A stretch of DNA of 20,000 nt from an uncultured virus (IMG/VR IMGVR_UViG_3300037840_000096) (taxonomy: Duplodnaviria; Heunggongvirae; Uroviricota; Caudoviricetes): IMG/VR virus record IMGVR_UViG_3300037840_000096, one strand, 5' to 3'. Position 1 is the stretch's first letter. Each line of letters begins with the position of its first letter. The translations under genes were made by a program, and so were the position numbers. The notes below the pieces were generated by a model. The model was not told the origin of the DNA and searched no databases. It was given only the letters and a program-made list of their open reading frames with translations. Positions 184-20,000 of the stretch are shown one piece after another.

Positions 184-1047
184 ATGGAATTCACTGATCT
201 GTTGGATGAGCATGGTGTGGCTTACCACGTTACAGGAGCCAAGTGTACCCAGGGATGGGTGAACTTCACCTGCCCGTGGTGCATGCGTGATCCCTACATG
301 GGCTACAACATTCAGAACAGGTATGTTTCCTGCTGGAACTGTGGCTATCACCCTCTGGGAATGACTCTCCGGCTCCTTACTGGATTGTCACTTCCAGAGT
401 GTTTTCGCCTAACAGCAGAGTTTCCCAGGCTGTTCCTGGGGCACAAACCCCACACCGGGAGGTACAAAGAGCCTCCGAATCTGGAGCCTTTGACTACCTC
501 TGGTCTTCACAGAGACTATTTAGCAAACAGAGGGCTTTGGCCGGCAATCGTATCCAAAATGTGGGGAGTGAGGGCCATAGGGCCTTTGGGAGGCAGGATG
601 AAGTGGAGACTCTGGATTCCCATTCATCTGAGAGGAGAAATAGTCTCCTGGACAACCCGACACATCTCCCCGGAGAACCCTCTTCGCTACCTGAACGCTC
701 CTGATGAGGAATCCTCCTACCCAGTGAGCGATCTCCTGTATGGAATTGACCATGCCAGGTGTGCCATCATCGTAGTGGAAGGCCCCGTGGATGTGTGGAA
801 GATCGGGCCTGGAGCGGTAGCCACTTTGGGAACCAACGTAACCCCCACCCGGCTGCTCCAGATCGCCAGATTTCCCTACCGGGTGGTGTGTTTCGATAAC
901 GAACCGGATGCTCAGGTACGAGCAAAGTCTCTATGCAAAGAACTCTCCATGTACCCAGGGACCACGAAGAATGTAACCCTGGATTCCAAGGACCCAGGTT
1001 TCTGTACCCCACAGGAACTGGACTCTCTCAGGAGGTTAATTTTGTGA
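184..1047 (+). CDS. DNA primase (Zn-binding domain + TOPRIM)
   Basis: N-terminal CPWC...CWNC zinc ribbon; TOPRIM motifs IIVVEGPVD, AVATLGT, VCFDNEPD and KDPG. Confidence 0.9.
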   Translation: MEFTDLLDEHGVAYHVTGAKCTQGWVNFTCPWCMRDPYMGYNIQNRYVSCWNCGYHPLGMTLRLLTGLSLPECFRLTAEFPRLFLGHKPHTGRYKEPPNLEPLTTSGLHRDYLANRGLWPAIVSKMWGVRAIGPLGGRMKWRLWIPIHLRGEIVSWTTRHISPENPLRYLNAPDEESSYPVSDLLYGIDHARCAIIVVEGPVDVWKIGPGAVATLGTNVTPTRLLQIARFPYRVVCFDNEPDAQVRAKSLCKELSMYPGTTKNVTLDSKDPGFCTPQELDSLRRLIL

Positions 1048-1049
1048 TA

Positions 1050-1343
1050 ATGACAGATGGGCTGCCGGTCGGTGAGATCGTTAAAAAGCATCTCACAGAG
1101 AAATGCCTCTCTGTGAGGAAAGCAGCCAAAGAGTGCGATCTGTGCTGGCTTACAATTCAGAGGATGATAAAATCCTACGGGAGAAAGGTAACCCTAGAAT
1201 CCTTTCTGAGGGTCTGTAAAGCCTTGAAGGTGCCAGCCAGTCAGATTTTGAAAGAAGCGGAGGAGTTACATGAAGCCAGAAGAGAAAACACTGGTGTCCA
1301 GCCTGCCGGTGGGGTTAGTTCTGAAACGAGCAAGGCTGTATAA
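1050..1343 (+). CDS. XRE-family helix-turn-helix protein
   Basis: Likely ATG at 1050 just after the primase stop; LSVRKAAKECDLCWLTIQRM...TLESFLRVCKALKV matches the XRE HTH pattern. Confidence 0.75.
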   Translation: MTDGLPVGEIVKKHLTEKCLSVRKAAKECDLCWLTIQRMIKSYGRKVTLESFLRVCKALKVPASQILKEAEELHEARRENTGVQPAGGVSSETSKAV

Positions 1344-1599
1344 GGGACTCTCCGCTCGAAACTGTGCCAGGAGAGCAAAGATTTGTCTTCATACCTGGTT
1401 ACGGTTTGAAAACGGAACACGCGGGACAGGATCTGGTCCTGTAAGTATACAACTGTCCACTCTAATCATAGCGTGTCAATCGCTTGGGCTGTCTCCCGGT
1501 AAGGTACTTCTGGAGGCTGAAAGACTGAAAGCCACGGGAAGGCCCCTGGAAGACCCTGTAACGCCATTGCTGGCCGAAACGGAGCGTAGGTCCCTTTGA
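1270..1599 (+). CDS. XRE-family helix-turn-helix protein (paralog of the preceding gene)
   Basis: AGGAG before ATG; LKRARLYKGLSARNCARRAKICLHTWLRFENG...LSTLIIACQSLGLS is an XRE HTH. Confidence 0.8.
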   Translation: MKPEEKTLVSSLPVGLVLKRARLYKGLSARNCARRAKICLHTWLRFENGTRGTGSGPVSIQLSTLIIACQSLGLSPGKVLLEAERLKATGRPLEDPVTPLLAETERRSL

Positions 1600-1788
1600 G
1601 AGTTGGAGTGCCTTGGCGGGGCTGCCAGGGGCCTAGAAAAGGCTCCCGGTAAGACGGGGACCAAAGACAAACCGGCCAGGAGGTGAATCCCAGCCGGCTT
1701 GCCCGGAACAACAGAGTGGTGGTGCAGCGGAGGCAATGCCAATGTACACCATCTGCTCCTTCTGACACAAGATATACAGGAGTACACC

Positions 1789-2526
1789 ATGTCCTTTATG
1801 AAGGAAGAACCCAGAGATCCCAGGGCGGCGTACATAGCCCAAAGTCTCTATGCCAAACTCAGGGAGAAGAAAGTTCTGTACACGGGGGCTTCCCTCCGCT
1901 CCATGAGATCCTGCGTGTATGAGCTAGTGAAAAAACACGGTCTGGAGGAAGTGGAGAAAGCCCTGGAGTGGTATGGCAATCATCTGGGAGAGGAGTGGGT
2001 TCCGCATGCCTACTCTGGTAGCTCACTCCGGGTGAAGTTCGACCAGATCCACCAGGCCATGCAGAGGATAGCAGAAGAAGCTCCACCAGAGGAGATCAGC
2101 GAGGAAGCAAAAAGACTGGCTACATGGGCCATGAAAAACTGGTCCTGGCCAGCAGCGATAGAGGCATCTCTGGAGACGGTGATCCAAAAGTCTCTGGAAA
2201 ACTGGAGGTCTTTCTCCCAGAGAATAGAGACTTTGGTCAGGAAGCCCTATATGAAGGCCATGCTTCGGGAGGTTGATTTTATCACCCGAATTCAGGTCAT
2301 GTACTCCCCCACGTTCCTCCAGCAATGGCTGGAACTCCTGCACGAGGCTTACGGATGGCAAAGTCATTATCTGGGAAGGATGAACAAGCTCGTGTTCCAA
2401 CCGGGATCTGTACTATTCCGGGAACATATGTGGAGGGGATGGGCTCAGGTATGGACAGGATCAGCGACCGCATTCGACAGTCTGTTGAAGTCGCTGCTGA
2501 TATCCTCCGGGGAGAAGCAAACGTGA
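1789..2526 (+). CDS. Hypothetical protein with a segment resembling the C-terminal domain of phage replication initiators (lambda O-like)
   Basis: AGGAG then ATG 1789 (track ORF starts at 1699); EEVEKALEWY...WVPHAYSGSSLRVKFDQI resembles the 'W...ILSP.KLR.KFDQL' pattern of O-like proteins. Confidence 0.5.
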   Translation: MSFMKEEPRDPRAAYIAQSLYAKLREKKVLYTGASLRSMRSCVYELVKKHGLEEVEKALEWYGNHLGEEWVPHAYSGSSLRVKFDQIHQAMQRIAEEAPPEEISEEAKRLATWAMKNWSWPAAIEASLETVIQKSLENWRSFSQRIETLVRKPYMKAMLREVDFITRIQVMYSPTFLQQWLELLHEAYGWQSHYLGRMNKLVFQPGSVLFREHMWRGWAQVWTGSATAFDSLLKSLLISSGEKQT

Positions 2527-3396: not shown

Positions 3397-4819
3397 GGAG
3401 TTCGACGGAGCCAGAGAGCAGGAAGCTCTGTTTCTCTGCGTGAAGGTAACAGAGTTTCTCTCCAGGGTCGCGGGAAGGATTGGCAAAGATCCCTGGAGAG
3501 CGAAATCCTCTAATCTGATTTGGAAATGGAGTGAGGAGTATTTCGCCAGGTACAAGCAGGCCCCTGATAGAGAGATCATGGCTCCTTTTCAGGAATGGGC
3601 CAGAAAATCAGGAAAAGACGAAGCTAGCCACAAGAACATAGACCGGCTTCTCTCCTGGATTCTTGACAGAGAAGTAGCAAAGTCCCTATCCCTGGCTCAT
3701 GCCCTAGATAGGGCTCAGGAGCATCTGAATGACGTGCGGCTGGGAAGGCATCTGGAGGAACTTACGAGGTTTCGAGAGCAAGGACAGGTAAGGGAAGCCC
3801 TAGTTTGTGTGCAGAGTTTCGTGAAGCTGGATCTGGAATCAGCACCCTATGTGGACGTGCTGCGGGATCTGGCAGCACATAAAGAGGCCCTGGAAGCGTC
3901 TCAGAGGGTTCTGGTGGAGATGCCGGGAGCAGCGGGAGAGTTCTTTGGCAACGAGCTATCTGAGAACGCCTTCGTGGCTTTTATGGCTGCTGCCAAAGGT
4001 GGAAAGTCTTACGCCCTCCTGGACATTGCCTGGCGGGCCTTTCGGCAGGGCAGGAAAGTGGCCTACTTCCAAGTAGGTGACCTTTCGCGGGATCAGATAA
4101 TTCGCAGGTTCCAGCGTAGAATCGTATACCGAAAGCTGGAACCTGGGATTTTCCAGAAACCAGTACGCATTACCGTTCCCAGCGAATCTCGTGGGCTGGC
4201 TGTCGTGGAGTATGAGCAGAAGGAGTTCACGAGAGAGGTGTCCTTCGCGAAACTTAACAAAGCCATAGAGACTTTGGCCGGCTCCCGGCCTGATCCTGAT
4301 TCGGGTGGGGAGTTACGGCTTTCTTACCATCCGATCAAAACTGTGTCTACGGTAGACATAAAAAACATTCTGGATTCCTGGGACCAAAGTGGTTTCCAGA
4401 GCCAGGTGATTTGCGTAGACTATGCTGGCAACCTTGCCCACTCTGGTGCCAGCAGGGATTTCGACAACATCTCCCAGACCGCTCATACCTGGGCCATGTT
4501 GCGGCAGTTGTCAGAGGTGCGGAAGTGTTTGGTGGTTACGGCCAACCAGACCAACAAGGAAGGGTTCACTTCCTGGGTGCTAACCCGAAAGAACTTTGCA
4601 GATTCCAAGATGATTCTTGCACACTGCACCGCTTTCCTTGGCGTGAACATGACAGATGAGGAGAAGCAGAGAGGCATCCTGCGATATAACTTCGTCGTAA
4701 GACGAGAGGATGCCTACAGTGAGTCGTTCTGTTTGTATGCGGGGAGCTATCTGGCGGCTGCTGACCCGCTTGCAGTTACAACCTTGCCGCCGAAAGGGTT
4801 CCCAGCAAAGCTGGGATGA
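3386..4819 (+). CDS. Replicative DNA helicase, DnaB/SF4-like
   Basis: Walker A FMAAAKGGKS, Walker B VICVDYA, SF4 motif LVVTANQTN; 477 aa; located near the primase. Confidence 0.88.
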   Translation: MKVEEFDGAREQEALFLCVKVTEFLSRVAGRIGKDPWRAKSSNLIWKWSEEYFARYKQAPDREIMAPFQEWARKSGKDEASHKNIDRLLSWILDREVAKSLSLAHALDRAQEHLNDVRLGRHLEELTRFREQGQVREALVCVQSFVKLDLESAPYVDVLRDLAAHKEALEASQRVLVEMPGAAGEFFGNELSENAFVAFMAAAKGGKSYALLDIAWRAFRQGRKVAYFQVGDLSRDQIIRRFQRRIVYRKLEPGIFQKPVRITVPSESRGLAVVEYEQKEFTREVSFAKLNKAIETLAGSRPDPDSGGELRLSYHPIKTVSTVDIKNILDSWDQSGFQSQVICVDYAGNLAHSGASRDFDNISQTAHTWAMLRQLSEVRKCLVVTANQTNKEGFTSWVLTRKNFADSKMILAHCTAFLGVNMTDEEKQRGILRYNFVVRREDAYSESFCLYAGSYLAAADPLAVTTLPPKGFPAKLG

Positions 4820-4825
4820 AAGGGG

Positions 4826-5179: not shown

Positions 5180-5667
5180 CCACACCGCAGAAACTGAGAA
5201 TTCTGAAGCAGGAAGCCACTCTGTTCCGGGACGGCAAAGTCCCTATCTACCTGATGCCCGATGGCAGGTTTGCCTGCTGCTGGGGAGGGAAATGGCTGGT
5301 CAGGGCCAGCGTAAAGTCGCTGGAGAAACACACCAACGCTCACAGACCCTTCGTGAAGTTGATGTGTGTCGCAGAGAACTTTCCTTCCTATCAGGACATG
5401 GCTCCCGTGGTGATGGAAGTCTCTGACATGCAGCAGTCCTACGTTTTCGACAAGGAGGGGAAACGCCGGACCCGGCATTCTGGGTGCTGGACGAGGTACG
5501 ATTCTGAGTTGTATGCTCAAGCTCTGGCTCTGGAGAAGAAACGCTTGAAATACCAGGAAGAACTCCAGGCAGAGTACGAAAAGATCCGGGAAGCTGTCAG
5601 AGGGAGGAGGATCTATCCTTCTTCTTTCAAGGATCTCCTGGAGAAGGAAGAGGAAGAAGAGGAGTAG
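5176..5667 (+). CDS. Hypothetical protein
   Basis: GGAGG then GTG 5176 (track ORF starts at 4981); coiled-coil and acidic C-terminus. Confidence 0.65.
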   Translation: MTTPQKLRILKQEATLFRDGKVPIYLMPDGRFACCWGGKWLVRASVKSLEKHTNAHRPFVKLMCVAENFPSYQDMAPVVMEVSDMQQSYVFDKEGKRRTRHSGCWTRYDSELYAQALALEKKRLKYQEELQAEYEKIREAVRGRRIYPSSFKDLLEKEEEEEE

Positions 5668-6208: not shown

Positions 6209-6307
6209 CGAGCAAAGTCCCTATAGTCCCAGCGATGCTGGGAGCCCTATGGACTTGGCTTCTGACCAACAGCAGGGATAGTCGCCTACAACAGCGAGAG
6301 GTGCAAG

Positions 6308-7642
6308 ATGGCGAAGAACGGCAAGAAATCCAAGACCGAAACCGAGATCCCCGGACTCAAGATCATCAGCGTGGACACGCTGATGGTGCCGGTGGACGAG
6401 TTCGTGGACAACAGTGCTCAGTCCCGTGGCATGGGGATCTTCTCCAAGCTGGGAGGGGAGGGCTATGGCCTCTTCGAGCGAAAGGGGGTCAACAAGAAAA
6501 GCATTTGGGAGATGCTGCACTCTGACAAGGAGGAGCAGCGGTCAGCGGCTCTGACCCTCCTGGAGGAACACGAGGGGGAGGAGTCGGAGGACCGGCAGAA
6601 GAAGCTGCCCGCTTCCGGTGGGAACTCCCTCTGGGCTCTGGCCAAGGACCTGCACGACAACCCCGCTGGGCTGCTCCAGCCCATTCTGGCCTGGGACACA
6701 GGGGATGGATTCGACTGCATTGCTGGTGCCCGTAGGCTGGTTTCCTACGCCATCAACAAGGCCCTGTACCCCGACGAGGATCGTTGGGGTGAGATCGAGA
6801 CACGAGTCTTCAAGTTCGATGGCACTCCTTCTCCCCTGGCTCTGCGACTCATGGCCAGGAGCGAGAACAAGATTCGCCGGGGGGAGAGTCCGCTGGATCG
6901 GGCCATGTCCTTCTCCCAGGACATGAAGGACGGAGGGTACACCATCGCTCAGTATTCCAGGATCGTCGGATTCTCGGAGCAGTACATCTCCGACTACACG
7001 AAGCGACTTCTGGACAAGAGGATGAAGGAGTTCTGGCCCAAGATTCACTCCGGGGAGTGGACGGTGGACAAGGCCCTCCGCAAGTACCGATCTTTCTCGA
7101 AGGAGGCGGAAGCCAAGCGGGAGGACAGCAACGGCACCCGTGACCGCTGGCCGTCTGCCAAGGCCACGGTCAAGACCTACAACCTGAAAAAGAAGCCAGA
7201 AGAGATGAGCGACGAGGAATGGACTCTCTGGACTTCTCCCGACGTTCGCAAGCTGATCGCTCTGACCTTCCACGTCGAATACTCCGAGTGGGAGCCTGGC
7301 AAGCCAGAGGAAGAGAAGCCCGCTGAGAAAGCGGAACCGGAAGGCAAAGCCACCAAACCCGGTGGTGGCAAGATCATCAGGATTCCCAGGCTGACGGCCC
7401 AACTTCTTCTGGTGGGATTGGGCAAGACGGATGCTCGAACCTACGACGATGCCAAACTGAAGGAGAAGCTGGAAAGCCTTCCCAACCTGATCGAGGATGG
7501 AACCCCGGAGTTGGATGACGCCACTCTGGAGAAGGTGAAGAACCGGCTCCTGGAGGCTTACCGTGAGGACTTGAACGTCGAGATCATCGACGGGAAATAC
7601 TCCGGGAAGGGTAAAGCCAAGGCCGGTGCTGCGGCCAAGTGA
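6308..7642 (+). CDS. parB: ParB/Spo0J-family protein (ParB N-terminal CTPase domain + HTH)
   Basis: GLLQPIL...IAGARRL (GxRR box), SENKIRRGESPLDRA, HTH YTIAQYSRIVGFSEQYISDY; GAGGTG Shine-Dalgarno. Confidence 0.85.
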   Translation: MAKNGKKSKTETEIPGLKIISVDTLMVPVDEFVDNSAQSRGMGIFSKLGGEGYGLFERKGVNKKSIWEMLHSDKEEQRSAALTLLEEHEGEESEDRQKKLPASGGNSLWALAKDLHDNPAGLLQPILAWDTGDGFDCIAGARRLVSYAINKALYPDEDRWGEIETRVFKFDGTPSPLALRLMARSENKIRRGESPLDRAMSFSQDMKDGGYTIAQYSRIVGFSEQYISDYTKRLLDKRMKEFWPKIHSGEWTVDKALRKYRSFSKEAEAKREDSNGTRDRWPSAKATVKTYNLKKKPEEMSDEEWTLWTSPDVRKLIALTFHVEYSEWEPGKPEEEKPAEKAEPEGKATKPGGGKIIRIPRLTAQLLLVGLGKTDARTYDDAKLKEKLESLPNLIEDGTPELDDATLEKVKNRLLEAYREDLNVEIIDGKYSGKGKAKAGAAAK

Positions 7643-7883: not shown

Positions 7884-7912
7884 TTCGTCCAAAGTCCCTA
7901 TGGAGAAAGCTG

Positions 7913-8490: not shown

Positions 8491-9503
8491 AGATGGACCG
8501 AAAGTCCCTACTTCACCGGCTTCTCCTGGTTGAACCAGGGCTTTCCAAAGGAGGGACATTTCGGCAAGCTGACTGTCTTCTCTTCCGGCGTGGTCGGGTC
8601 TATACCTTCAATCAGGAAGTAGCCTGCTCCTTGCCCTCCGGGCTCCCTAAAGAGGTAGAGGGAGCCGTGGAGGGTAAGAGGGTCATGGACCTGCTGAAAC
8701 TCCTGGAGGAAGATGAGATAGAGGTTGATTTCGCAGCAAAGTCCCTATGCGTCCGGGGTAAGAGGCCCCGGTCTACTATCCCTCTGCAAGAAGAAATTAC
8801 CCTACCCGTGGACAGTGTGGACAAACCGGAAGGGTGGCAGAAGCTACACGAGGATTTCTCAGAAGCAGTGGATTTAGTCTATCGCTGTGCCCGGAAGAGA
8901 CGCCAGGACGAGGGCATGGACTGGAAAAAGGAGTGTGTCCATATTACTCCTAAGCACATGGAGGCCAGTGACAACGAAAAGCTGGCCAGGTACACGCTTC
9001 CCACGGGAGTTCTGGAGCCCCTCCTGGTTCGTGGGGAGACTCTGAAAGCCATGTGCCAGTTAGGAATGACGCAGGTGTGTGAGACGCCTGCCTGGCTTCA
9101 CTTCTGGAATCCCATGAAACTCAGGATGAGCCTTCGCAAGCACATTCGAGAGTCTTACCCCAACATGGAGGCATTCCTAAAGCTGCGGGGGAGAAAGATT
9201 CTGCTTCCAAAGTCCCTATGCTCCACGGTAGCCAGGGCCATGATTTTCACCCAGGACAGGGTTCGGGTAACCCTGCTTCCCAAGAAAGTAGTAGTAGAGG
9301 CCATCTCCCCGCAGGGAAACCACTACGAACCCTGTCCTCTGGTGGGATATGAGTACGAAGGACCTGATCTGTGTTTCTCCGTGCCTCCCAAACTGCTCCT
9401 GGATGTAGTATCCAGGGAGAGTGTGTGTGAGGTAACAGAGTCCACTCTCCGAGTGGACAACGGCAAGTGTGTGTTTGTAGTATCCTTGGAGAGAACAGCA
9501 TGA
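8487..9503 (+). CDS. DNA polymerase sliding clamp, Pol III beta-like
   Basis: 338 aa with a beta-clamp-like pattern (MKMDRKSLLHRLLLV..., MEASDNEKLARY, FSVPPKLLLDVV); lies in a replication module that has a clamp loader. Confidence 0.7.
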   Translation: MKMDRKSLLHRLLLVEPGLSKGGTFRQADCLLFRRGRVYTFNQEVACSLPSGLPKEVEGAVEGKRVMDLLKLLEEDEIEVDFAAKSLCVRGKRPRSTIPLQEEITLPVDSVDKPEGWQKLHEDFSEAVDLVYRCARKRRQDEGMDWKKECVHITPKHMEASDNEKLARYTLPTGVLEPLLVRGETLKAMCQLGMTQVCETPAWLHFWNPMKLRMSLRKHIRESYPNMEAFLKLRGRKILLPKSLCSTVARAMIFTQDRVRVTLLPKKVVVEAISPQGNHYEPCPLVGYEYEGPDLCFSVPPKLLLDVVSRESVCEVTESTLRVDNGKCVFVVSLERTA

Positions 9504-12149: not shown

Positions 12150-13543
12150 AATCTCCAGTTCCAGCTACGAAAGAAGCCCTCCAACTGCTCATGGAGGGAG
12201 CGGTTGCATCTAGTAAGATGTCAGCCAACGGCATCAGGATAGACGTGCCGTACCTGGACCAGAAGATCAAGGAGGTTCGCCAGACCATAGAGACTTTGGA
12301 GTCTGAACTCCGGCAGGCACCAGAATACAAGTGCTGGCAGAAGATGTTCGGTCTGAAGATGAAACTCCAGGCTCCTTACCAACTTGGACAGGTGATCTTT
12401 CGAGGGATGGGTCATAAGAGAAATCCGTTTCTACAAGACTCCAACGAGGAGGTGGCGTTTGAGCATCTGAAGCTACCCTTCCTGAAGTTGCACTTTCAGA
12501 GGTTGAAGCTGAAGAAGGCCCTGACCACCAACCTCTACGGCATCAAACGCGAAACTGTAAGCGGGTTCTGCCATCCCAGCTTCCTGCTGGACACCACCGT
12601 CTCCAATCGCTTGAGTTGCCGCAACCCTAACTTCCAAAATGTTCCAGGCCGGAACAAGGTAATCTCCGAGATCGTGCGGTCCTGTGTGATTCCCAGGGAA
12701 GGTCACGAGATCCTAAACGGTGACTACTCCGTGCAGGAAGTGCGAGTGGCCTACTGCTACTGCAAGGATCAAAGGCTCCTGCATGATATCCTGCACGGAG
12801 ACATGCACAAGGATCGAGCCCTGGAGTTGTTTCTTCTGACTCCAGAGGAGATGGGAAACCCCAAACAAGGAATGGGGAAGAAGATTCGCCAGGAGGCCAA
12901 GAACAAGTTTACCTTCGCTCAGTTCTACGGGGACTACTACGGTCACTGTGCCCCTCTGCTCTGGGATGCTATCACAATGGAGGAGCTTACCACCGCTGCT
13001 GGCGTGCCTCTCCACGAGCATCTCAAGTCAAAAGGCATAGGGACTTTGGGCCTTTGTGACCCAGAACAGGAACCCAAGAAAGGAACTTTTGAGTATCACG
13101 TTCAGAAAGTAGAGAGGAAAATGTGGGACGAGGTGTACGTTGAGTACACCCAATGGAAAAAGGACTGGTACAATTTGTACCTGGCTCACGGAGCCATCTC
13201 CACCCTCACTGGCTTCCGACACGAAGGAGTGTTCTCCCGGAATCAGATACTCAACTTCCCCGTGCAAGGGTCGGCTGCTCACTGCCTGCTCTGGTCGCAC
13301 ATCCAGATCCAAAAGGAAATGACCCAGCGTAGGATGAAGTCCAAGATCATCTTCACAATCCACGATTCTCTCGGGGTAGACGCCCATAAGAAAGAGATAG
13401 ATGATGTGTGCGAGATGATGTACCGCTGGAGCGTAGTAGAGATTCAGAAGCACTGGCCCTGGATCATCGTTCCGTTGTCCTTGGAGTTCGGCATCTGCCC
13501 TGTCAACTGGTATCAGGAAATCCCTCTGGAGGTGAAGTTATGA
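12146..13543 (+). CDS. DNA polymerase family A, polymerase domain only (C-terminal part of the split enzyme)
   Basis: GIRID thumb start; RLSCRNPNFQNVP; motif A DYSVQEVRV; motif B RQEAKNKFTFAQFYG; NFPVQGSAA; motif C TIHDS. Confidence 0.93.
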   Translation: MKSPVPATKEALQLLMEGAVASSKMSANGIRIDVPYLDQKIKEVRQTIETLESELRQAPEYKCWQKMFGLKMKLQAPYQLGQVIFRGMGHKRNPFLQDSNEEVAFEHLKLPFLKLHFQRLKLKKALTTNLYGIKRETVSGFCHPSFLLDTTVSNRLSCRNPNFQNVPGRNKVISEIVRSCVIPREGHEILNGDYSVQEVRVAYCYCKDQRLLHDILHGDMHKDRALELFLLTPEEMGNPKQGMGKKIRQEAKNKFTFAQFYGDYYGHCAPLLWDAITMEELTTAAGVPLHEHLKSKGIGTLGLCDPEQEPKKGTFEYHVQKVERKMWDEVYVEYTQWKKDWYNLYLAHGAISTLTGFRHEGVFSRNQILNFPVQGSAAHCLLWSHIQIQKEMTQRRMKSKIIFTIHDSLGVDAHKKEIDDVCEMMYRWSVVEIQKHWPWIIVPLSLEFGICPVNWYQEIPLEVKL

Positions 13544-13722: not shown

Positions 13723-14651
13723 GTACCTCCCTGTATGAAACCTGTCGCCCAAAGTCTCTAAGGGAAGTGGTGGGTCAGGACAACGCCGTACGCATCCTGA
13801 CCCAGAAGCTCAGGGAAGAATCCCTTCCCCACACGGTTATGTTCGCAGGGCCTACGGGATCGGGAAAATCCACGCTGGCACACATCGTAGCCAATGAACT
13901 TGGCTGCGGGGACAACCTCACCCCCATAAACTGTGCTGATGATCGCGGCATGGACATGGTCAGAGAGATCCAGACCACCATGCGTTACCAGCCCATGAAC
14001 GCAAAGTGTCGGGTGTGGATTCTGGAAGAGGTGATCCAGATTCCCAAACTCACCCAGAAAGCCTTCCTGGACGTGCTGGAGCACCCTCCAGAGACGGTGT
14101 ATTTCCTGCTCTGTACCAACGACACCGGAGGGCTCCTGGACACCTTTCTGGGAAGGTGTTTCATCTTGAACCTAGCACCCCTAGCTGGAGAACATCTAGC
14201 AACGGTGTTGTCCAGAGCCACTGCCACACTAAACACAAACTTTCCAGAACCTGCTGTGGTTAGAGCCATAGTCACTAACTCCCAGGGCTCTGCCAGAGTG
14301 GCTCTACAGCTTCTGGAGGCTGCTCTGGCGGTCAAAGGGGAGAAGGCTCAACTGGAGGCTGTGCAGCAGGGAGTGCCTGATAAAGAAGCTCTGGTGGAGT
14401 TCCTGGGCAGAGCTCTGATCCGGCGGGCTTCCTGGGCTGATCTGGCAAAGGCCCTGAAGCCACTCACGGATCAGGAAGCAGAGGGGGTTCGCCGGCAAGT
14501 TCTGGCCTACATGACTACGGTTCTCCTGGGAGGAGGGGACAAATCCACCCTGGCGTATCATGTAATAGAGGCTTTCCGAGAGCCTTTCTACCAGAATGGC
14601 AAGGCTCTCCTGGTGGCAGCGGTGTGGCGTGCAACCCAGATGGCGAGGTAG
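13719..14651 (+). CDS. Clamp loader AAA+ ATPase, DnaX (gamma/tau)/RFC-like
   Basis: LYETCRPKSLREVVGQ, Walker A GPTGSGKS, Walker B WILEEV, LEHPP, LGRC (SRC-like), GSARVALQLLE. Confidence 0.9.
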   Translation: MSTSLYETCRPKSLREVVGQDNAVRILTQKLREESLPHTVMFAGPTGSGKSTLAHIVANELGCGDNLTPINCADDRGMDMVREIQTTMRYQPMNAKCRVWILEEVIQIPKLTQKAFLDVLEHPPETVYFLLCTNDTGGLLDTFLGRCFILNLAPLAGEHLATVLSRATATLNTNFPEPAVVRAIVTNSQGSARVALQLLEAALAVKGEKAQLEAVQQGVPDKEALVEFLGRALIRRASWADLAKALKPLTDQEAEGVRRQVLAYMTTVLLGGGDKSTLAYHVIEAFREPFYQNGKALLVAAVWRATQMAR

Positions 14652-14663
14652 AAAGGAGAATCC

Positions 14664-14789
14664 ATGCAATGGCACCGGGGAGTGTTCGTAGTCCTTGTCA
14701 GACTGCTGCTCATAGTGCTTTTGCTGCTGTGCATCAGCGGCATGCTAGGGCTAATCGCAGACCAGATCGCTCACTTGTTTCGGAGGTAG
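14664..14789 (+). CDS. Small single-pass membrane protein (41 aa)
   Basis: AAGGAG then ATG 14664; MQWHRGVFVVLVRLLLIVLLLLCISGMLGLIADQIAHLFRR; fills the gap exactly; below the ORF-track cutoff. Confidence 0.6.
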   Translation: MQWHRGVFVVLVRLLLIVLLLLCISGMLGLIADQIAHLFRR

Positions 14790-14794
14790 CAGTC

Positions 14795-15028: not shown

Positions 15029-15032
15029 AATC

Positions 15033-15518: not shown

Positions 15519-15569
15519 CCGTCCGAAGCAAAGTCCCTATGGTATCGCCCGTAGCAGCAGAGGTGCAGA

Positions 15570-16604: not shown

Positions 16605-16630
16605 GGCTCCCTGACAGCCCTGGCAGGTCA

Positions 16631-16680
16631 GGGGAGGAGGGGCGGGACTTGTACTCCCGGTCAGACTCTCCTCCCCGTTT
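16631..16680 (+). terminator. GC-rich hairpin followed by GTTT after ssb (putative terminator or processing stem)
   Basis: GGGGAGGAG (16631-16639) pairs with CTCCTCCCC (16668-16676), with inner stem CGGGA/TCCCG; the T-tract is weak. Confidence 0.35.
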
Positions 16681-16681
16681 C

Positions 16682-16758
16682 GGCCTCGTGGTGTAATTGG
16701 TAGCAGCCCCTGCCTTAATCAGGCTCGGGCGGTGTTGGTTCGACTCCAACCGAGGCCC
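16682..16758 (+). tRNA. Atypical tRNA (best-paired anticodon UUA, ochre-suppressor-like; identity uncertain)
   Basis: Acceptor GGCCTCG/CGAGGCC; D loop AATTGGTA; T arm GTTGG-TTCGACT-CCAAC; anticodon arm CCTG-CCTTAAT-CAGG; 9-nt variable region; no CCA. Confidence 0.75.
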
Positions 16759-16760
16759 TT

Positions 16761-17798
16761 ATGAAAAACTCAGTAGAACAAGCAAGGAGAGAAATGTTCC
16801 AGCACTCCAACGGCAAAGTCCCTATGGGATTTGATCCTGTCCTCTCTATTGGTTTGACTCTGGGAAACCTGGGGATCTGTGGCAAGACCAACGTAGGACT
16901 GGCTAAAGGAAAAATATACCGGCTCCAGGGCCGCTCCCAGAGTGGGAAGACTTTTGTAGCTAGAACCATTCTGGCAGAGGCTGCTCGAAGCAAGGTGTTC
17001 GACGAATATGAACTAATCTACGATGATGTAGAGCGTGGTGCCCTGATGGACACCGAAAAATACTACGGAAGAAAATTGGTAGAGCGTCTGGTTCCTCCTG
17101 ATGGCACTCCAGACGATCCCATGTACTCCGTAACCGTGGGGGATTTCTTCAAGCGTATCAACTTCCTTCTTGCCCAAGGCAAAAAGCTCATCTGGATCGA
17201 GGACTCTCTGGATTCCCTGGAGCCCGACAACGCTACCAAAATGGGAGATGGCAAAGCCAAGGTCTACTCCCAGGAGCTACGGAGATTGCTGAAGCCTTTG
17301 GATGAGACGGGAAGTATTCTCATCCTGATCTCCCAGGTTCGTATGGATATCCGCTCTCCCTGGGGAGGGGATCTGGCCTCTGGTGGTATGGCCCCGGAGT
17401 TCTACTCCACTCTGGAGATTGTGCTTCGTAAGCTAAAACCCATAAAGAAAAAGTATAAGGACGTGGACTATATCACCGGGAGTCTGGTGTCCTGTCGTAT
17501 CAAAAAGAACCGAATCTCTGGCCGGGACAGGCTCATCAAGTTCCCATTCGATCCTGAAGTGGGGATAGACGACGTGGGAGCCAACGTGGACTTTCTGTTG
17601 GCCTCCAATCACTGGAAGAAGAACAAAGCTGCTAAGGTCATCCAGGCTCCAGAGTTCAACTTCACCGGGGGCAGGTCTGCTCTGGTGAAGAAAATAGAGG
17701 AAGAAGGTGTTGAGAGGGAACTTCAAATCCTGGTAGGCAAGGTGTGGCGGGAGATCGACGAAGCCCTGACAGTCGGGAGAAAGAATCGGTACGAGTAG
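16761..17798 (+). CDS. recA: RecA/UvsX-like recombinase
   Basis: LSIGLTLGNLGICG, Walker A GRSQSGKT, IWIEDSL, ILISQVR, SGGMAPEFYS, IKKNR; alternative start ATG 16794 has the stronger SD (AAGGAG). Confidence 0.92.
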   Translation: MKNSVEQARREMFQHSNGKVPMGFDPVLSIGLTLGNLGICGKTNVGLAKGKIYRLQGRSQSGKTFVARTILAEAARSKVFDEYELIYDDVERGALMDTEKYYGRKLVERLVPPDGTPDDPMYSVTVGDFFKRINFLLAQGKKLIWIEDSLDSLEPDNATKMGDGKAKVYSQELRRLLKPLDETGSILILISQVRMDIRSPWGGDLASGGMAPEFYSTLEIVLRKLKPIKKKYKDVDYITGSLVSCRIKKNRISGRDRLIKFPFDPEVGIDDVGANVDFLLASNHWKKNKAAKVIQAPEFNFTGGRSALVKKIEEEGVERELQILVGKVWREIDEALTVGRKNRYE

Positions 17799-18146
17799 AT
17801 GGCTAGAACCTCCCCAACCCAGCGTAGCTTGGCCCTCCTTCGGCGGGAGGGCTACACATGCCAGGTGGTGGAGTCATTCAATGCCTACGCTGGTCGGAGG
17901 ATAGACCTGTTCGGGGTGATAGACATAGTAGCTGTAGGACATGGGCACATACTTGGAGTACAAACAACCACTGGCTCCAACCTGTCTGCCAGGGAAGCAA
18001 AGTCCCTATCAGAACCGAGGCTGTTGGAGTGGCTTCGTGCAGGTGGTCGTTTCGAGTTGTGGGGCTGGCGGAAGGTTGGTCCCCGTGGTAAGCGTAAGAC
18101 CTGGCAGGTTCGCCGGGTTGAACTTCTGGAGGTAAACTTCTCATGA
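17799..18146 (+). CDS. PD-(D/E)XK nuclease, Holliday-junction resolvase-like
   Basis: LRREGY...DLFGVIDIVAV...GVQTT is an Hjc-like pattern; adjacent to recA. Confidence 0.7.
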   Translation: MARTSPTQRSLALLRREGYTCQVVESFNAYAGRRIDLFGVIDIVAVGHGHILGVQTTTGSNLSAREAKSLSEPRLLEWLRAGGRFELWGWRKVGPRGKRKTWQVRRVELLEVNFS

Positions 18147-18925
18147 AAACTCAGATCCTGGACTACGGATACCTCGAATACATCGAGCATTGGGGCTCGG
18201 ATGAGCGAGTGATCGAAGCCGCTCGCATGTCTACGGGCAAGGGATTCCTTGGCTGGGGGCCGAAAGAGGAAGCCTGTCCAGAATGCTCAGGGGCTCCTCA
18301 CATCTACGAACACGAGAACGCGAAGACCTGTCCAGGATGCAGAGGAACGGGGAAGAAGCCTGGAGACGAGAAACTACTCAGGTTCCTGAACGAGAAGAAG
18401 CACACCACTCCCTTCGAGATGGCGGGACTCGTGCTGGAGGTGCAGGCTCCCATCATGGTGTTCCGGGAATGGCACCGGCACCGGACCCAGAGCTACAACG
18501 AAATGTCCGCCCGTTACACCCCTCTCCCAGACGTGAACTACGTTCCCACTGTGGACCGTCTTATGATCGGTTCAGACGGTAAGAACCGTCAAGCAGGTAC
18601 GGTGTCTGGAGCGGAGGTGCTGACCCGTCAAATGGCTGAACTGTACTGTGCTGAGTTGCAGTACGTCTGGAAGCAACAAGAGGAGTTCTACCAACGCTGG
18701 CTCAAGAATGGCGTGCCTAAAGAACTAGCCCGTGCCCATCTTGGAGTGGGTCGCTACAGTCGAATGCGTGCCTCTGCCAACCTCCTGAATTGGCTGAAGT
18801 TTCTCACGCTTCGCATGGCTCCAGATGCCCAATTCGAGATTCGCCAATTCGCCAACGCGGTTGGGGATCTGATCTCCCAGCACTTCCCCCGCACCTGGAC
18901 TCTATTCGTAGAGGGTAGGCAATGA
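18143..18925 (+). CDS. thyX: Flavin-dependent thymidylate synthase with zinc-finger insertion
   Basis: AARMS, HTTPFE, ThyX motif REWHRHRTQSYNEMSARY, KELAR, AQFEIR. Confidence 0.95.
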   Translation: MKTQILDYGYLEYIEHWGSDERVIEAARMSTGKGFLGWGPKEEACPECSGAPHIYEHENAKTCPGCRGTGKKPGDEKLLRFLNEKKHTTPFEMAGLVLEVQAPIMVFREWHRHRTQSYNEMSARYTPLPDVNYVPTVDRLMIGSDGKNRQAGTVSGAEVLTRQMAELYCAELQYVWKQQEEFYQRWLKNGVPKELARAHLGVGRYSRMRASANLLNWLKFLTLRMAPDAQFEIRQFANAVGDLISQHFPRTWTLFVEGRQ

Positions 18926-19311
18926 GTGACTTCCCGCTGCACGATGAGTTGAAGCTACCTCACCCCCGGCACCCAGGACACAAAGGATTCCTGGATCTCC
19001 TCATGGAGATGAGGGCTCTCCACATCAAAAAATGCCAGGACTACGGAATCAAGGATGATCCTCTCCTCAACCTTCGAGCGTGTGCTGCGGCTGGCCTGGA
19101 ACCGTGGAAAGGATGCTGGCTCCGGGCTCTGGACAAGGTCACACGGATAAACGTCTTTTGCCAAAAGGGCAACCTGGAGAACGAATCTGTGGAAGACTCT
19201 CTCCTGGATCTGGCAGCATACTGTCTCCTGGCCTTGACGCTGAAGCGAGAAGCCGATGCTCGAAAAGCTGCGGATGCAAAACTGGCAGAACCACCAGGAG
19301 AAGGTAGTTGA
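18922..19311 (+). CDS. Nucleotide-modification-associated domain protein (DUF1599/Nmad1-like, MazG-like all-alpha fold)
   Basis: KKCQDYG...RALDKVTRI...NESVEDSLLDLAAY. Confidence 0.75.
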   Translation: MSDFPLHDELKLPHPRHPGHKGFLDLLMEMRALHIKKCQDYGIKDDPLLNLRACAAAGLEPWKGCWLRALDKVTRINVFCQKGNLENESVEDSLLDLAAYCLLALTLKREADARKAADAKLAEPPGEGS

Positions 19312-20000
19312 GTTTGATCCCCAGGTGACGGTGATTGTTGGCGATAACGATAGCGGCAAAAGCGCTATTCTTCGGGCTCTCCGTTGGATAGCGTTTGATG
19401 AGTGGGATGGGATCGCCAACGAACACATCACCTGGGGAGAAGACTCTTCTGAGTGCATACTCTCCCTGGACGGTCACGAGATCACCCGGTACAAATCTGT
19501 AGATGGAAAGAACCTGTACTTCCTGGATGAGAAGAGGTTCGCCGCCTTCTACCCCGATGTTCCCCAACCCATAAAGAAGCTCCTGAACTGTGGCCCTGAC
19601 AACTTCCAGAACCAGGACGACCCTCCCTTCTGGCTGTCTCTGACTTCTGGCCAGGCAGCCAGTGCCCTGAATGAAATCTTCCACCTGGAAGATATAGATG
19701 CTGCTCTGGACTCTGCTAGATCAGAGGTTCGGAAGATCGGTTCTCGGGTGCAGGTTATGAAAGAAAATGTGGTCCAATTCCAGGAAGAGGTTCGCAAGCT
19801 GAAGTGGGTGGACAAAGCCGACAAAGCTCTCAAACAGATAGAGACTTTGGAGCGACTGGTCCACACTCAGGAAGAGAACATAACCTCTCGCACCCTTCAG
19901 ATTCAGGAGGTAGAGGAAGCTGAAGGCAAGATGTGGACACTCAAACGTAGGATCAAGTTAGGTGAGAAGGCTCTGCTCCGAGGGGAGCGGTTAGCACAAC
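19256..20000 (+). CDS. SbcC/Rad50/gp46-like recombination ATPase, 3'-truncated by the window edge
   Basis: My translation from ATG 19256: MLEKLRMQNWQNHQEKVVEFDPQVTVIVGDNDSGKSAILRALRW (Walker A), Q-loop NFQNQDDPPFWL, then coiled coil; open to the end of the window; not in the ORF track. Confidence 0.88.
   Translation, partial: MLEKLRMQNWQNHQEKVVEFDPQVTVIVGDNDSGKSAILRALRWIAFDEWDGIANEHITWGEDSSECILSLDGHEITRYKSVDGKNLYFLDEKRFAAFYPDVPQPIKKLLNCGPDNFQNQDDPPFWLSLTSGQAASALNEIFHLEDIDAALDSARSEVRKIGSRVQVMKENVVQFQEEVRKLKWVDKADKALKQIETLERLVHTQEENITSRTLQIQEVEEAEGKMWTLKRRIKLGEKALLRGERLAQ

What the first reader, a model, noticed from the sequence alone, without database searches (positions are those of the whole stretch)
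922..19850. Asymmetric 13-bp motif SCAAAGTCYCTAT written into the coding sequences about once per kb
Seen in sequence: 18 exact copies of CAAAGTCYCTAT, all preceded by G or C. There are 13 on + (923, 1840, 3678, 5235, 6213, 7890, 8737, 9208, 10101, 10509, 15529, 16814, 17998) and 5 on - (2224, 4265, 12287, 13037, 19838). Near-matches occur at 577(-), 13750, 8500 and 2359. Chance expectation for the 12-mer in 20 kb on both strands at uniform composition is about 0.005. Fifteen copies lie inside unrelated genes (primase, helicase, clamp, UDG-exo, PolA, RecA, nuclease, SbcC and others). They occur in four codon registers: A/P-K-S-L, G-K-V-P/S, Q-S-L-Y and I-E/G-T-L. Synonymous positions are fixed (CTA, ATA, TTG) and flanks are unrelated, so selection acts on the DNA, not on protein or through a mobile repeat. 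Established analogies are mycobacteriophage L5 stoperators (13-bp asymmetric), DNA uptake sequences, Chi/KOPS/matS, and the dispersed sites of the ParB-family proteins Noc and KorB. I do not recognise this sequence as any of those. Inference: it is a phage genome-marking system of dispersed binding sites for a phage protein, serving genome organisation/segregation, self/non-self discrimination, packaging or DNA entry, or global repression.
Basis: partly seen in the sequence, partly recalled or inferred. Interest (0 to 1): 0.93.

Follow-up and report, generated by a model that had tools for sequence, protein, structure and literature searches.

The report
Private DNA word marking a phage genome
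An uncultured soil phage has written one exact copy of a private 13-15-base DNA word into roughly every thousand bases of its genome, mostly inside genes; its relatives carry their own versions, and the likeliest reader is the phage's own ParB-type DNA clamp protein, though no binding has been tested.

Summary
The window holds 18 exact copies of SCAAAGTCYCTAT (0.03 expected). With 2.6 kb more from an identical record, there are 21 copies in 22.7 kb.

Selection acts on the DNA:
- 19 of 20 peptide positions that could encode the word do encode it.
- The word uses minority codons.
- In PolA it replaces the family's consensus GIKKLG with GIGTLG.

Copies are evenly spaced only when both strands are pooled, so orientation does not seem to matter.

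New here: three related phage fragments (primase, DnaB or PolA 44-55% identical) each carry their own dialect at about one per kb:
- AAAGACYCTA
- GGGAAGACTCTAY
- CCGTCAAAGCAGTTAWTWTTCG

More distant relatives lack such a word. The word-bearing lineage also has its own ParB-CTPase protein, with GxxR and ENxxR motifs, a ParB-type HTH, and fold matches to ParB, Noc and KorB. A word copy lies within 100 nt upstream of parB in 3 of 3 relatives where that region is visible.

Best reading (about 0.4): these are parS/OB-like loading sites of the phage's own ParB clamp, spaced so that sliding covers the whole genome.

Weaknesses: the word is asymmetric, no binding was tested, and only about 30% of the roughly 77-kb genome is visible.

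Rivals: another phage reader (stoperator-like), nick or modification sites, and a host signal. No host was found, but the search was weak.

The parts
922..934 (+). word copy GCAAAGTCTCTAT in the primase gene (A-K-S-L)
1839..1851 (+). word copy CCAAAGTCTCTAT in the unknown gene 1699/1789-2526 (Q-S-L-Y)
2224..2236 (-). word copy, reverse orientation, same unknown gene (I-E-T-L)
3677..3689 (+). word copy in the DnaB-like helicase gene (A-K-S-L)
4265..4277 (-). word copy, reverse orientation, in the DnaB-like helicase gene (I-E-T-L)
5234..5246 (+). word copy in an unknown gene (G-K-V-P)
6212..6224 (+). intergenic word copy, 84 nt before the ParB-like start. A word copy also lies upstream of parB in relatives rel271 and L342.
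7889..7901 (+). word copy 12 nt before the likely GroES start (7913), directly followed by GGAG
8736..8748 (+). word copy in the clamp-like gene. It sits in the same alignment column as a copy of the dialect in rel271 (AAG TCC CTA versus AAG ACT CTA).
9207..9219 (+). word copy in the clamp-like gene (P-K-S-L; relatives have LPKxL)
10100..10112 (+). word copy in the UDG/3'-5' exonuclease gene (G-K-V-S)
10508..10520 (+). word copy in the UDG/3'-5' exonuclease gene (G-K-V-S)
12287..12299 (-). word copy, reverse orientation, in PolA (I-E-T-L; 32 relatives have I-x-x-[ML])
13037..13049 (-). word copy, reverse orientation, in PolA (GIGTLG where the family consensus is GIKKLG)
15528..15540 (+). intergenic word copy, 30 nt before gene 15570-16604
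16813..16825 (+). word copy in the RecA/UvsX-like gene (G-K-V-P)
17997..18009 (+). word copy in unknown gene 17799-18146 (A-K-S-L)
19838..19850 (-). word copy, reverse orientation, in the SbcC-like gene (I-E-T-L)
6308..7642 (+). ParB-CTPase family gene (444 aa), the best candidate reader. It has GxxR (G140, R143) and ENxxR (N187, R190) motifs and a ParB-type HTH.
13749..13761 (+). near copy CCAAAGTCTCTAA (1 mismatch) in the clamp-loader gene
8499..8511 (+). near copy CGAAAGTCCCTAC (2 mismatches, 9-base core intact)
577..589 (-). near copy CCAAAGGCCCTAT (1 mismatch)

Best explanation
The word is a cis-acting recognition site in duplex DNA, kept by selection about once per kb irrespective of strand. 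It belongs to a lineage of uncultured phages of about 77 kb in which each member has its own dialect. The most likely reader is the lineage's own ParB-CTPase protein (window 6308-7642). By analogy with ParB/parS, Noc/NBS and KorB/OB, the protein would load at the word, close into a CTP-dependent clamp and slide for about 1-2 kb. One site per kb would then keep the whole genome occupied. The purpose of that occupancy is open: global gene control, compaction or segregation, or marking the DNA as self. Dialects would keep related phages from reading each other's DNA, as in plasmid incompatibility. Shown here: the sites, the DNA-level selection, the strand-independent even spacing, the dialects, the ParB fold and motifs, and the word copy beside parB. 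Inferred: binding, CTP-dependent sliding and the purpose.
For: (1) Enrichment: 18 copies against 0.03 expected, and 21 in 22,655 b.

(2) DNA-level selection. 19 of 20 pentapeptide positions able to encode the word do so; one site is counted in two overlapping ORFs, and the single miss is at 2358. Permuting synonymous codons within genes leaves a mean of 3.1 copies (largest 6) in 2000 trials against 21, and 2 of those are the unshuffled intergenic copies. The word uses minority codons: CTA 9% and TTG 12% of Leu, ATA 17% of Ile. Among 32 PolA relatives at 47-57% identity, none has the word's peptide at either PolA site, and the consensus GIKKLG is GIGTLG here.

(3) Spacing. CV is 0.54 against 0.96 for random placement, P=0.0014. 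Per-strand spacing is not regular (P=0.27 and 0.66). Holding one strand's sites fixed and randomising the other's gives P=0.021 and 0.0027. The result repeats in relative rel271 (P=0.0036; 0.008 and 0.005).

(4) Dialects. L270 has 5 copies of AAAGACYCTA in 6.1 kb. G007/rel271 has 10 copies of (Y)RGGAAGACTCTAY in 14.2 kb, with the reversed-pattern control at 0. L342 has 10 copies of TCAAAGCAGTTA, extended to about 22 b, in 9.9 kb. Each phage has 0 copies of the other's dialect. One site in the clamp gene occupies the same codons in this phage and in rel271.

(5) Link to ParB. A profile of the ParB-like family hits strongly only the three loci with strong words whose parB region is visible, out of 90 loci. 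tblastn finds the protein in 1 of 88 loci. A word copy lies 84, about 20 and about 40 nt upstream of parB in 3 of 3 cases.

(6) The protein is a true ParB-CTPase. The family profile matches ParB/Spo0J/Noc at E 3e-22 to 7.5e-17 and KorB at 1e-4. HTH_ParB is found in 35 of 44 members and ParB_N in 12 of 44. G140, R143, N187 and R190 are invariant. The AF2 model has pLDDT 87.6. All listed Foldseek matches with E <= 0.001 are ParB, Noc, Spo0J or KorB. The DNA-binding domain resembles ParB-parS (Z 8.8) and KorB-operator (Z 7.8, rmsd 2.7 A over 85 residues).

(7) KorB clamps reach promoters up to 1.5 kb from their sites (PMC11790492, abstract and passages). That range matches the 1.0-1.5 kb spacing found here.
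Against: ParB, Noc and KorB sites are palindromes read by dimers. This word is asymmetric: only 5 of 7 mirrored pairs fit a dyad centred on C8. The break (A at positions 4 and 12) is invariant in 21, 10 and 5 copies, none of the 12 matches to CAWAGNNNCTWTG is a symmetric variant, and L342's word shows no dyad.

The ParB/word co-occurrence amounts to one clade, so it is effectively one evolutionary event.

A perfect 22-bp palindrome inside the 5' end of parB (6364-6385) could be the real parS.

No ParA was seen, though only about 30% of the genome is visible.

Two more distant relatives, L297 and L285, have other dispersed words without a visible ParB-like gene.

In L342, 7 of 10 copies are intergenic and four lie 18-37 nt before ORF starts. 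That would also fit an ordinary operator or promoter element.

No binding data exist.
Confidence: 0.4

Rival explanations
1. The sites are read by a different phage-encoded, inherently asymmetric DNA-binding protein, for example a monomeric two-domain repressor as in Cluster A mycobacteriophages. It would silence or tune transcription across the genome, in the manner of stoperators.
For: The word is 13 bp, asymmetric, present in many copies and has lineage-specific dialects, as described for stoperators (PMC6550527 passages; PMC9283540 abstract start). In L342 most copies sit just before genes. About 70% of the genome, where such a gene could lie, is not visible.
Against: Stoperators predominantly have one orientation relative to transcription. 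Here all genes are on + and copies split 14:7, which is two-sided binomial 0.19 by my arithmetic. Sites on the two strands fill each other's gaps. 18 of 21 copies are inside genes or long ORFs. The only small HTH genes in the window (1050-1343, 1270-1599) have no homologue in 88 relatives' loci. No integrase or immunity gene was seen in the visible part.
Confidence: 0.17
2. The word is the target of a phage enzyme that nicks one strand or modifies a base. The broken dyad would ensure that only one strand is cut or marked, and even spacing would provide swivel or marking points along the packaged DNA.
For: The sharpness of the word (18 exact, 5 near) resembles enzyme specificity. The pseudo-dyad has an invariant break. 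Phage ParB-like proteins can act as activators of DNA-modifying T-dioxygenases (PMC13229309, abstract). Localised nicks at consensus sequences in T5-, phiKMV- and tf-type phages are recalled, not from any call.
Against: No nuclease, methyltransferase or dioxygenase family was detected beside the sites. A target motif does not by itself explain enrichment or even spacing. As I recall, known nick systems use one strand only. The dioxygenase-associated ParBs lack a DNA-binding domain, whereas this one has a ParB HTH. Only contigs, not raw reads, were available, so ends could not be seen.
Confidence: 0.12
3. The word is a host signal that the phage imitates or has acquired. It could be an uptake-sequence-like or Chi-like self mark read by a host protein, with dialects that follow the hosts.
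For: Density near 1 per kb, both orientations, even spacing, placement in tolerant reading frames and dialects between related lineages are the hallmarks of DUS/USS (recalled, not from any call). The host is unknown.
Against: No genome with the word at density was found. Five genomes behind those rows have 1-3 copies. 301 Planctomycetota genomes have at most 5 copies each, like the control. The gene content looks like a self-replicating lytic-type module. A word copy is tied to the phage's own parB in 3 of 3 cases. A 13-15 b word is longer than any Chi I recall.
Confidence: 0.12
4. The word marks start sites for the phage primase on the lagging-strand template, which would explain spacing of about Okazaki-fragment length.
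For: Spacing of about 1 kb. A DnaG-type primase with a zinc-binding domain is encoded at 184-1047.
Against: Priming sites are strand-specific, so each strand should be evenly covered on its own. Here neither strand is (P=0.27 and 0.66, with + gaps up to 5 kb and - gaps up to 8 kb), and only the pooled set is regular. Primase homologues occur in 10 of 88 loci, most of them without any word.
Confidence: 0.05

Closest known systems
KorB and its OB operators on plasmid RK2 (ParB-CTPase clamp acting as global regulator)
   Same: A mobile element encodes its own ParB-family protein with several dispersed sites of about 13 bp, some far from promoters. Clamps slide up to 1.5 kb (PMC11790492). The DNA-binding domain of the phage protein superposes on KorB-operator (Z 7.8).
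   Different: OB is a palindrome. As I recall, RK2 has only about a dozen sites in 60 kb. Here there is about one site per kb, mostly inside coding sequence, and the site is asymmetric. No KorA-like partner is known, and binding is untested.
Noc and its NBS sites; chromosomal ParB/parS
   Same: ParB-CTPase fold with GxxR and ENxxR motifs and a ParB HTH. Many specific sites are scattered over a replicon and spreading starts from them. A site lies close to the parB gene.
   Different: Those sites are palindromic and far sparser. The partners differ (membrane binding for Noc, ParA for ParB), and none of these was seen here.
Stoperators of Cluster A mycobacteriophages (L5 gp71-type repressor)
   Same: A 13-bp asymmetric word in tens of copies per genome, with motif and reader diverging together between subclusters (PMC6550527; PMC9283540).
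   Different: Stoperators have one predominant orientation relative to transcription. Here orientation is neutral, most copies are intragenic, the density is higher, and no gp71-like repressor was found in the visible part.
DNA uptake sequences (DUS of Neisseriaceae, USS of Pasteurellaceae); properties recalled
   Same: Exact 9-12-mers about once per kb, in both orientations, evenly spaced, tolerated in particular reading frames, with dialects between related lineages.
   Different: Those belong to bacterial chromosomes and arise from biased uptake. Here the carrier is a phage, and no host genome with the word was found in those searched.
22-bp asymmetric repeats of T1-like phages (T1, TLS, Stevie)
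   Same: 16-20 copies of an asymmetric phage-private repeat of unknown function (PMC4319613; PMC11447400).
   Different: Those repeats are predominantly intergenic and co-oriented with transcription.
Dispersed SopB centromere sites of phage N15 (recalled, not from any call)
   Same: A phage with a ParB-family protein whose sites are scattered in the genome rather than clustered.
   Different: As I recall, N15 has four palindromic sites and is a plasmid prophage with a ParA partner.

Membership tests
ParB-CTPase proteins with dispersed cognate sites (ParB/parS, Noc/NBS, KorB/OB) | N-terminal ParB/Srx-fold nucleotide-binding domain with GxxR and ENxxR motifs | tested here: met
   G140, R143, N187 and R190 are invariant in 44 family members. 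The family profile matches ParB/Spo0J/Noc at E 3e-22 to 7.5e-17. Foldseek and VIA hits are PadC, Spo0J, pNOB8 ParB and sulfiredoxin at Z 9-10.
ParB-CTPase proteins with dispersed cognate sites (ParB/parS, Noc/NBS, KorB/OB) | ParB-type helix-turn-helix DNA-binding domain | tested here: met
   HTH_ParB is found in 35 of 44 members. Model residues 172-282 match ParB-parS at Z 8.8 and KorB-operator at Z 7.8.
ParB-CTPase proteins with dispersed cognate sites (ParB/parS, Noc/NBS, KorB/OB) | Cognate site is a 13-16 bp palindrome read by a dimer | tested here: not met
   The word has only a partial dyad (5 of 7 pairs). The break at positions 4 and 12 is invariant. None of the 12 matches to CAWAGNNNCTWTG is a symmetric variant. 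L342's word shows no dyad.
ParB-CTPase proteins with dispersed cognate sites (ParB/parS, Noc/NBS, KorB/OB) | A cognate site lies at or beside the parB gene | tested here: met
   A word copy lies 84, about 20 and about 40 nt upstream of parB in 3 of 3 visible cases.
ParB-CTPase proteins with dispersed cognate sites (ParB/parS, Noc/NBS, KorB/OB) | The protein binds the site, binds CTP and slides | not testable with these tools
   No DNA-protein prediction or assay is available.
ParB-CTPase proteins with dispersed cognate sites (ParB/parS, Noc/NBS, KorB/OB) | Partner protein (ParA, or KorA-like clamp lock) | tested here: inconclusive
   No ParA family hit in the 22.7 kb visible. About 70% of the genome was not seen.
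Stoperators (Cluster A mycobacteriophages) | 13-bp asymmetric site in tens of copies across the genome | tested here: met
Stoperators (Cluster A mycobacteriophages) | Predominantly one orientation relative to transcription | tested here: not met
   Copies split 14 + to 7 - with all genes on +. Sites on the two strands complement each other in spacing. The definition comes from PMC6550527.
Stoperators (Cluster A mycobacteriophages) | gp71-type monomeric immunity repressor encoded by the phage | tested here: inconclusive
   None was recognised in the visible part. The two XRE-type genes are not conserved in relatives. The Cluster A repressor 7tz1 appears only as a generic HTH match to the ParB HTH (Z 4.4).
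DNA uptake sequences (DUS/USS) | About one per kb, both orientations, evenly spaced, many inside genes | tested here: met
DNA uptake sequences (DUS/USS) | Same word at similar density throughout the host chromosome | tested here: inconclusive
   Not found in those searched: 121 rows of a truncated genome-contig scan, 5 genomes with 1-3 copies, and 301 Planctomycetota genomes with at most 5 copies. The host is unknown.
Localised nick sites of T5/tf-type phages | Consensus at nicks, all on one strand | tested here: not met
   Copies lie on both strands. The one-strand rule is recalled.
Localised nick sites of T5/tf-type phages | Physical single-strand interruptions at the sites | not testable with these tools
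   Only assembled contigs of two runs were available.
Primase recognition sites | Strand-specific sites covering each lagging-strand template | tested here: not met
   Per-strand spacing is not regular (P=0.27 and 0.66). Gaps reach 5 kb on + and 8 kb on -.

The most novel reading that the evidence does not exclude
A lineage of soil phages marks its whole genome as its own. It builds about 75 private loading sites for its own ParB-CTP clamp into its coding sequences, one per sliding range. Lineage-specific dialects evolve, as in plasmid incompatibility, so that co-infecting relatives cannot read or hijack each other's DNA. The invariant asymmetry would mean a ParB-family protein that reads a non-palindromic site, for example with a second reading head in its uncharacterised C-terminal half.
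Probability: 0.25. Interest if true: 0.9.

Novelty: new variant of a known kind. Interest (0 to 1): 0.8.

Why it matters
If the ParB link holds, this would be the densest known set of ParB-family sites on any replicon. It would also be a case where a virus pays in rare codons and altered amino acids in core replication enzymes to keep a protein-docking word every kilobase.

That would extend the ParB-CTP clamp idea from centromeres and a few plasmid operators to coverage of a whole genome. It would also provide a natural series of site/reader dialects for studying how DNA-reading specificity co-evolves.

That constraint comprises exact, evenly spaced, strand-indifferent, lineage-private words. 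It can be tested directly with one purified protein and a few oligonucleotides.

I found no description of this word or of such a system in print. The searches were made, over open-access full texts only.

Tried and rejected
- **Megablast** of the window against cultured phages: no match.
- **tblastn of PolA** against cultured phages: best 27% identity, so no host hint.
- **ParB-like protein** against cultured phages and against plasmids: no match.
- **First relatives found** (PolA 38-48% identity): no motif and no other dispersed word.
- **Viral-contig scan with a 14-mer form of the word:** None of the 80 loci fetched with 5-kb flanks holds a second copy.
- **Viral-contig scan with a 22-mer** repeated inside the phage, meant to reach the rest of its genome: 0 hits, since the phage's own records are left out.
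- **Sequencing runs:** two soil-metagenome DNA runs hold the stretch, both kept as contigs and both possibly the source. No RNA holder is listed. Contigs cannot show nicks, ends or expression.
- **X2 contig ends** do not coincide with the word (my reading).
- **The search for homologous proteins on the ParB-like protein:** nothing, twice, not even the protein itself. The first search scored only the 8000 candidates sharing most words with the query, which I attribute to its lysine/glutamate-rich words.
- **AF2 on a two-sequence alignment:** unusable, pLDDT 41.7.
- **Pfam on the window's ParB-like protein alone:** no ParB family.
- **Scans for more ParB-like loci** found only L271, apart from L342.
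- **The XRE pair** as a heterodimeric reader of a pseudo-dyad: dropped, no homologue in 88 loci.
- **Promoter reading:** no sigma-70-like site around the parB-upstream copy, and one third of copies are antisense.
- **RNA-level signal:** rejected because both orientations occur in a one-strand gene array.
- **Mobile repeat:** rejected because flanks are unrelated and a 13-b insertion would break frames.
- **C-terminal half of the ParB-like protein** (residues 283-444): barely tested by the fold searches.
- **Literature search for the word itself:** 81 papers held one of the strings. All 20 listed held CAAAGTCCCTAT; by their titles most are flavivirus studies, and none concerns phage (listing only).

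Full report
**1. The observation**

The window holds 18 exact copies of CAAAGTCYCTAT, 13 on + and 5 on -, at the stated coordinates. Dinucleotide-preserving shuffles give 0.03. Every copy is preceded by G or C. Allowing up to two mismatches to the 13-mer adds only five sites, against 1.58 expected for all sites with up to two mismatches, so the word is unusually sharp.

Flanks are unrelated. Two further positions are weakly conserved: G after the word in 14 of 21 copies and S next in 17 of 21.

A virus record, G001, is 100% identical to window 4543-20000 and runs 2655 bases further, adding three copies. All further statistics use this 22,655-base stretch with 21 copies, 14 + and 7 -.

One soil-metagenome run holds the window inside a 76,847-base contig, at 6747-26746. 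That contig also shows three further 20-22-base matches to word-bearing stretches, at about 42, 57 and 61 kb. The word therefore also occurs beyond the part I could read. That visible part is roughly 30% of the genome.

**2. Setting**

The stretch is a phage replication module, with all convincing genes on the + strand:
- primase
- two small XRE-type HTH genes
- DnaB-like helicase
- a ParB-like gene
- GroES
- a clamp-like gene
- UDG plus 3'-5' exonuclease
- dCTP deaminase
- PolA
- clamp loader
- RecA/UvsX-like
- ThyX
- SbcC-like

No cultured phage is close: megablast finds nothing and the best PolA match is 27% identical.

**3. Selection is on the DNA**

Copies use four of the five reading registers that avoid a stop codon.

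- Of 20 pentapeptide positions in the encoded proteins that could carry the word, 19 carry it. One site is counted in two overlapping ORFs.
- Permuting synonymous codons within each gene leaves a mean of 3.1 copies (largest 6) in 2000 trials. Two of those are the untouched intergenic copies.
- The word needs minority codons: CTA is 9% and TTG 12% of Leu codons, ATA 17% of Ile, ACT 22% of Thr.
- Orthologues show that the word sits where the protein was already nearly compatible (I-x-x-L, L-P-K-x-L, G-I-x-x-L-G), with the variable residues bent to fit.
- In 32 PolA relatives at 47-57% identity, neither PolA site encodes the word's peptide. The family consensus GIKKLG is GIGTLG here.

This is a cost paid in core enzymes.

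**4. Spacing and orientation**

The mean gap is 1058 bases. The coefficient of variation is 0.54 against 0.96 for random placement (P about 0.0014-0.0018 in 20,000 simulations).

Neither strand is regular on its own (P=0.27 and 0.66). The 5-kb gap between + copies at 10508 and 15528 is filled by the - copies at 12287 and 13037. Keeping one strand's sites fixed and randomising the other's gives P=0.021 and 0.0027. Copies on the two strands therefore substitute for one another.

The 14:7 split does not differ from 1:1 (two-sided binomial 0.19, my arithmetic). It matches the 3:2 ratio of usable reading registers. The signal thus behaves as a duplex-DNA site needed about once per kb, with no polarity.

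This argues against stoperators, promoters, Chi/KOPS-type polar signals and strand-specific priming sites.

**5. Relatives carry dialects**

PolA relatives at 38-48% identity have no such word. A wider protein search showed a closer group at 47-57% identity, several of them on 71-79-kb contigs. Three members of this lineage could be read as DNA.

| Relative | Size | Similarity to this phage | Word | Copies and spacing |
|---|---|---|---|---|
| L270 | 6.1 kb | PolA 55% | (W)AAAGACYCTA(W) | 5 copies, 3+/2- |
| G007 (= L271/L300, "rel271") | 14.2 kb | PolA 53%, syntenic | (Y)RGGAAGACTCTAY | 10 copies, 6+/4-, reversed-pattern control 0; mean gap 1451, CV 0.40, P=0.0036; again regular only when strands are pooled |
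| L342 | 9.9 kb | primase 45%, DnaB 44%, syntenic | TCAAAGCAGTTA, extended to CCGTCAAAGCAGTTAWTWTTCG | 10 copies, 6+/4- |

The first two dialects share the core AAGWCYCTA with this phage, where W is T. L342's word shares CAAAG and TAT with this phage's word at the same spacing, but differs in the four central bases. That resemblance is suggestive only.

Neither this phage nor rel271 has a copy of the other's dialect. Most sites are at different places in the two phages. One in the clamp gene occupies the same codons, AAG TCC CTA here and AAG ACT CTA there. This suggests that sites can persist while the dialect changes.

Other, more distant relatives have unrelated dispersed words: L297 has TCTTGAWAA 23 times in 19 kb, not evenly spaced, and L285 has AATGGTAAT 6 times. 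Private words may therefore be common in this wider group.

**6. A candidate reader**

Among the window's proteins, the ParB-like one is found by tblastn in only 1 of 88 relatives' loci, namely rel271. The two XRE-type proteins are found in none.

A profile of the ParB-like family was run against 3732 ORF segments of 90 loci. It hits strongly only this phage, rel271 and L342, with weak hits in L141 and L273.

In all three, a word copy lies just upstream of parB: 84 nt here, about 20 nt in rel271 and about 40 nt in L342, where it is in reverse orientation. At the observed densities, a copy within a given 100 nt is expected in about 7-10% of cases each (my arithmetic). Intergenic DNA probably attracts copies, so the true odds are less extreme.

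The protein is a genuine ParB-CTPase:
- 47 cluster representatives match at E <= 1e-30.
- The family profile matches ParB, Spo0J and Noc structures at E 3e-22 to 7.5e-17 and KorB at 1e-4.
- HTH_ParB is found in 35 of 44 members and ParB_N in 12 of 44.
- G140 and R143 (GxxR) and N187 and R190 (ENxxR) are invariant.
- The AF2 model has pLDDT 87.6.
- All listed Foldseek matches with E <= 0.001 are ParB, Noc, Spo0J or KorB.
- Its DNA-binding domain resembles ParB-parS (Z 8.8) and KorB-operator (Z 7.8).

KorB clamps load at OB sites and slide to promoters up to 1.5 kb away (PMC11790492, abstract and passages). Orphan ParB-CTPase proteins are frequent on mobile elements and in phages (PMC12704722, passages). 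A site every 1.0-1.5 kb is what full coverage by such a clamp would need.

**7. What does not fit**

- ParB-family sites are palindromes. This word has only a partial dyad around its central C: 5 of 7 mirrored pairs here, 5 of 6 in rel271. The break, A at both position 4 and position 12, is invariant. None of the 12 matches to the relaxed pattern CAWAGNNNCTWTG is a symmetric variant. L342's word has no dyad at all. If it is this ParB, it needs something extra, such as a second reading module in the C-terminal half, which the fold searches barely tested. P1 ParB reads two different boxes (recalled; its structure 1zx4 appears at Z 5.3).
- A perfect 22-bp palindrome inside the 5' end of parB (6364-6385) could be the true parS. 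It is not conserved in rel271.
- The ParB/word association is one clade, hence effectively one event.
- In L342, 7 of 10 copies are intergenic and four lie 18-37 nt before ORF starts. That would also suit an ordinary operator.

**8. Host signal**

I estimate that as about 5% of the chance hits expected for the whole collection. Five genomes behind those rows have 1-3 copies. 301 Planctomycetota genomes have at most 5 copies each, like the reversed control.

No candidate host was found, but the test is weak, so a host-encoded reader stays at about 0.12.

**9. Literature**

The word itself appears only in unrelated papers (listing). Searches for dispersed phage repeats and for phage ParB returned:
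- stoperators (PMC6550527 passages; PMC9283540 abstract start)
- the 22-bp repeats of T1-like phages (PMC4319613 and PMC11447400, passages)
- KorB, and the ParB-fold survey
- ParB-like activators of phage T-dioxygenases, which lack a DNA-binding domain (PMC13229309, abstract)

None describes this arrangement. Supplements were not read.

Earlier notes of this scan report comparable private words in other uncultured phages. They are unchecked leads.

**10. Verdict**

The thing is a lineage-private, evenly spaced, strand-indifferent DNA word maintained by selection against coding interests, with dialects among relatives.

My leading reading, at about 0.4, is that the copies are loading sites of the phage's own ParB-CTP clamp, giving whole-genome coverage. 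Next come another asymmetric phage reader (0.17), nick or modification sites (0.12), a host signal (0.12) and priming sites (0.05).

I class it as a new variant of a known kind (dispersed ParB/KorB/Noc-type or stoperator-type site systems), with high interest.

Noticed in passing
window 6364-6385: A perfect 22-bp palindrome, CATCAGCGTGGACACGCTGATG (10-bp arms, 2-bp centre), lies inside the 5' end of the ParB-like gene. It occurs once in the window. It could be a classical parS. It is not conserved at the aligned place in rel271.
   Followed up: partly
L297 (19,023 b; PolA about 34% identical): The 9-mer TCTTGAWAA occurs 23 times on both strands (about one per 0.8 kb) and is not evenly spaced (CV 0.82). 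No ParB-like gene is visible in that locus.
   Followed up: partly
L285 and L301: Other over-represented words appear in more distant relatives. L285 has AATGGTAAT 6 times (0.04 expected). L301 has AAGATCCTA 6 times and ATCGGATTC 7 times.
   Followed up: no
L342 3710, 4285, 4782, 7451: In this relative the 22-b word sits 18-37 nt before the starts of small ORFs in a roughly 3.7-kb insert of small genes between primase and the unk275 homologue. The layout looks start- or promoter-associated.
   Followed up: partly
window 9640-10935 and 12146-13543: The family A polymerase is split. A UDG-family domain fused to the 3'-5' exonuclease is encoded separately from the polymerase domain, with three small genes and a dCTP deaminase between them.
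   Followed up: no
window 19256-20000, continuing in L140: The SbcC-like ORF ends at 20206 of the joined stretch and overlaps the next 342-aa ORF (20053-21081) by about 150 b. A word copy lies in the overlap. This could be a split gene or a frameshift.
   Followed up: no
window 16380-16527: The acidic low-complexity tail of gene 15570-16604 (D/E-rich) collects short unrelated contigs, joints and loose ends in both runs. These are most likely cross-matches of simple sequence, not variants.
   Followed up: no
window 1050-1343 and 1270-1599: Two adjacent paralogous XRE-type HTH genes overlap by about 70 b. They are absent from all 88 relatives' loci.
   Followed up: partly
window 7913-8275: The phage encodes a GroES (Cpn10, E 8e-23). 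No homologue was found in the relatives' loci.
   Followed up: no
window 6308-7642: The word-indexed protein search did not return this protein or any relative, even though 47 clusters exist at E <= 1e-30 in the exhaustive search. A long ORF on the opposite strand (6542-7678) may have been called instead in some annotations.
   Followed up: partly
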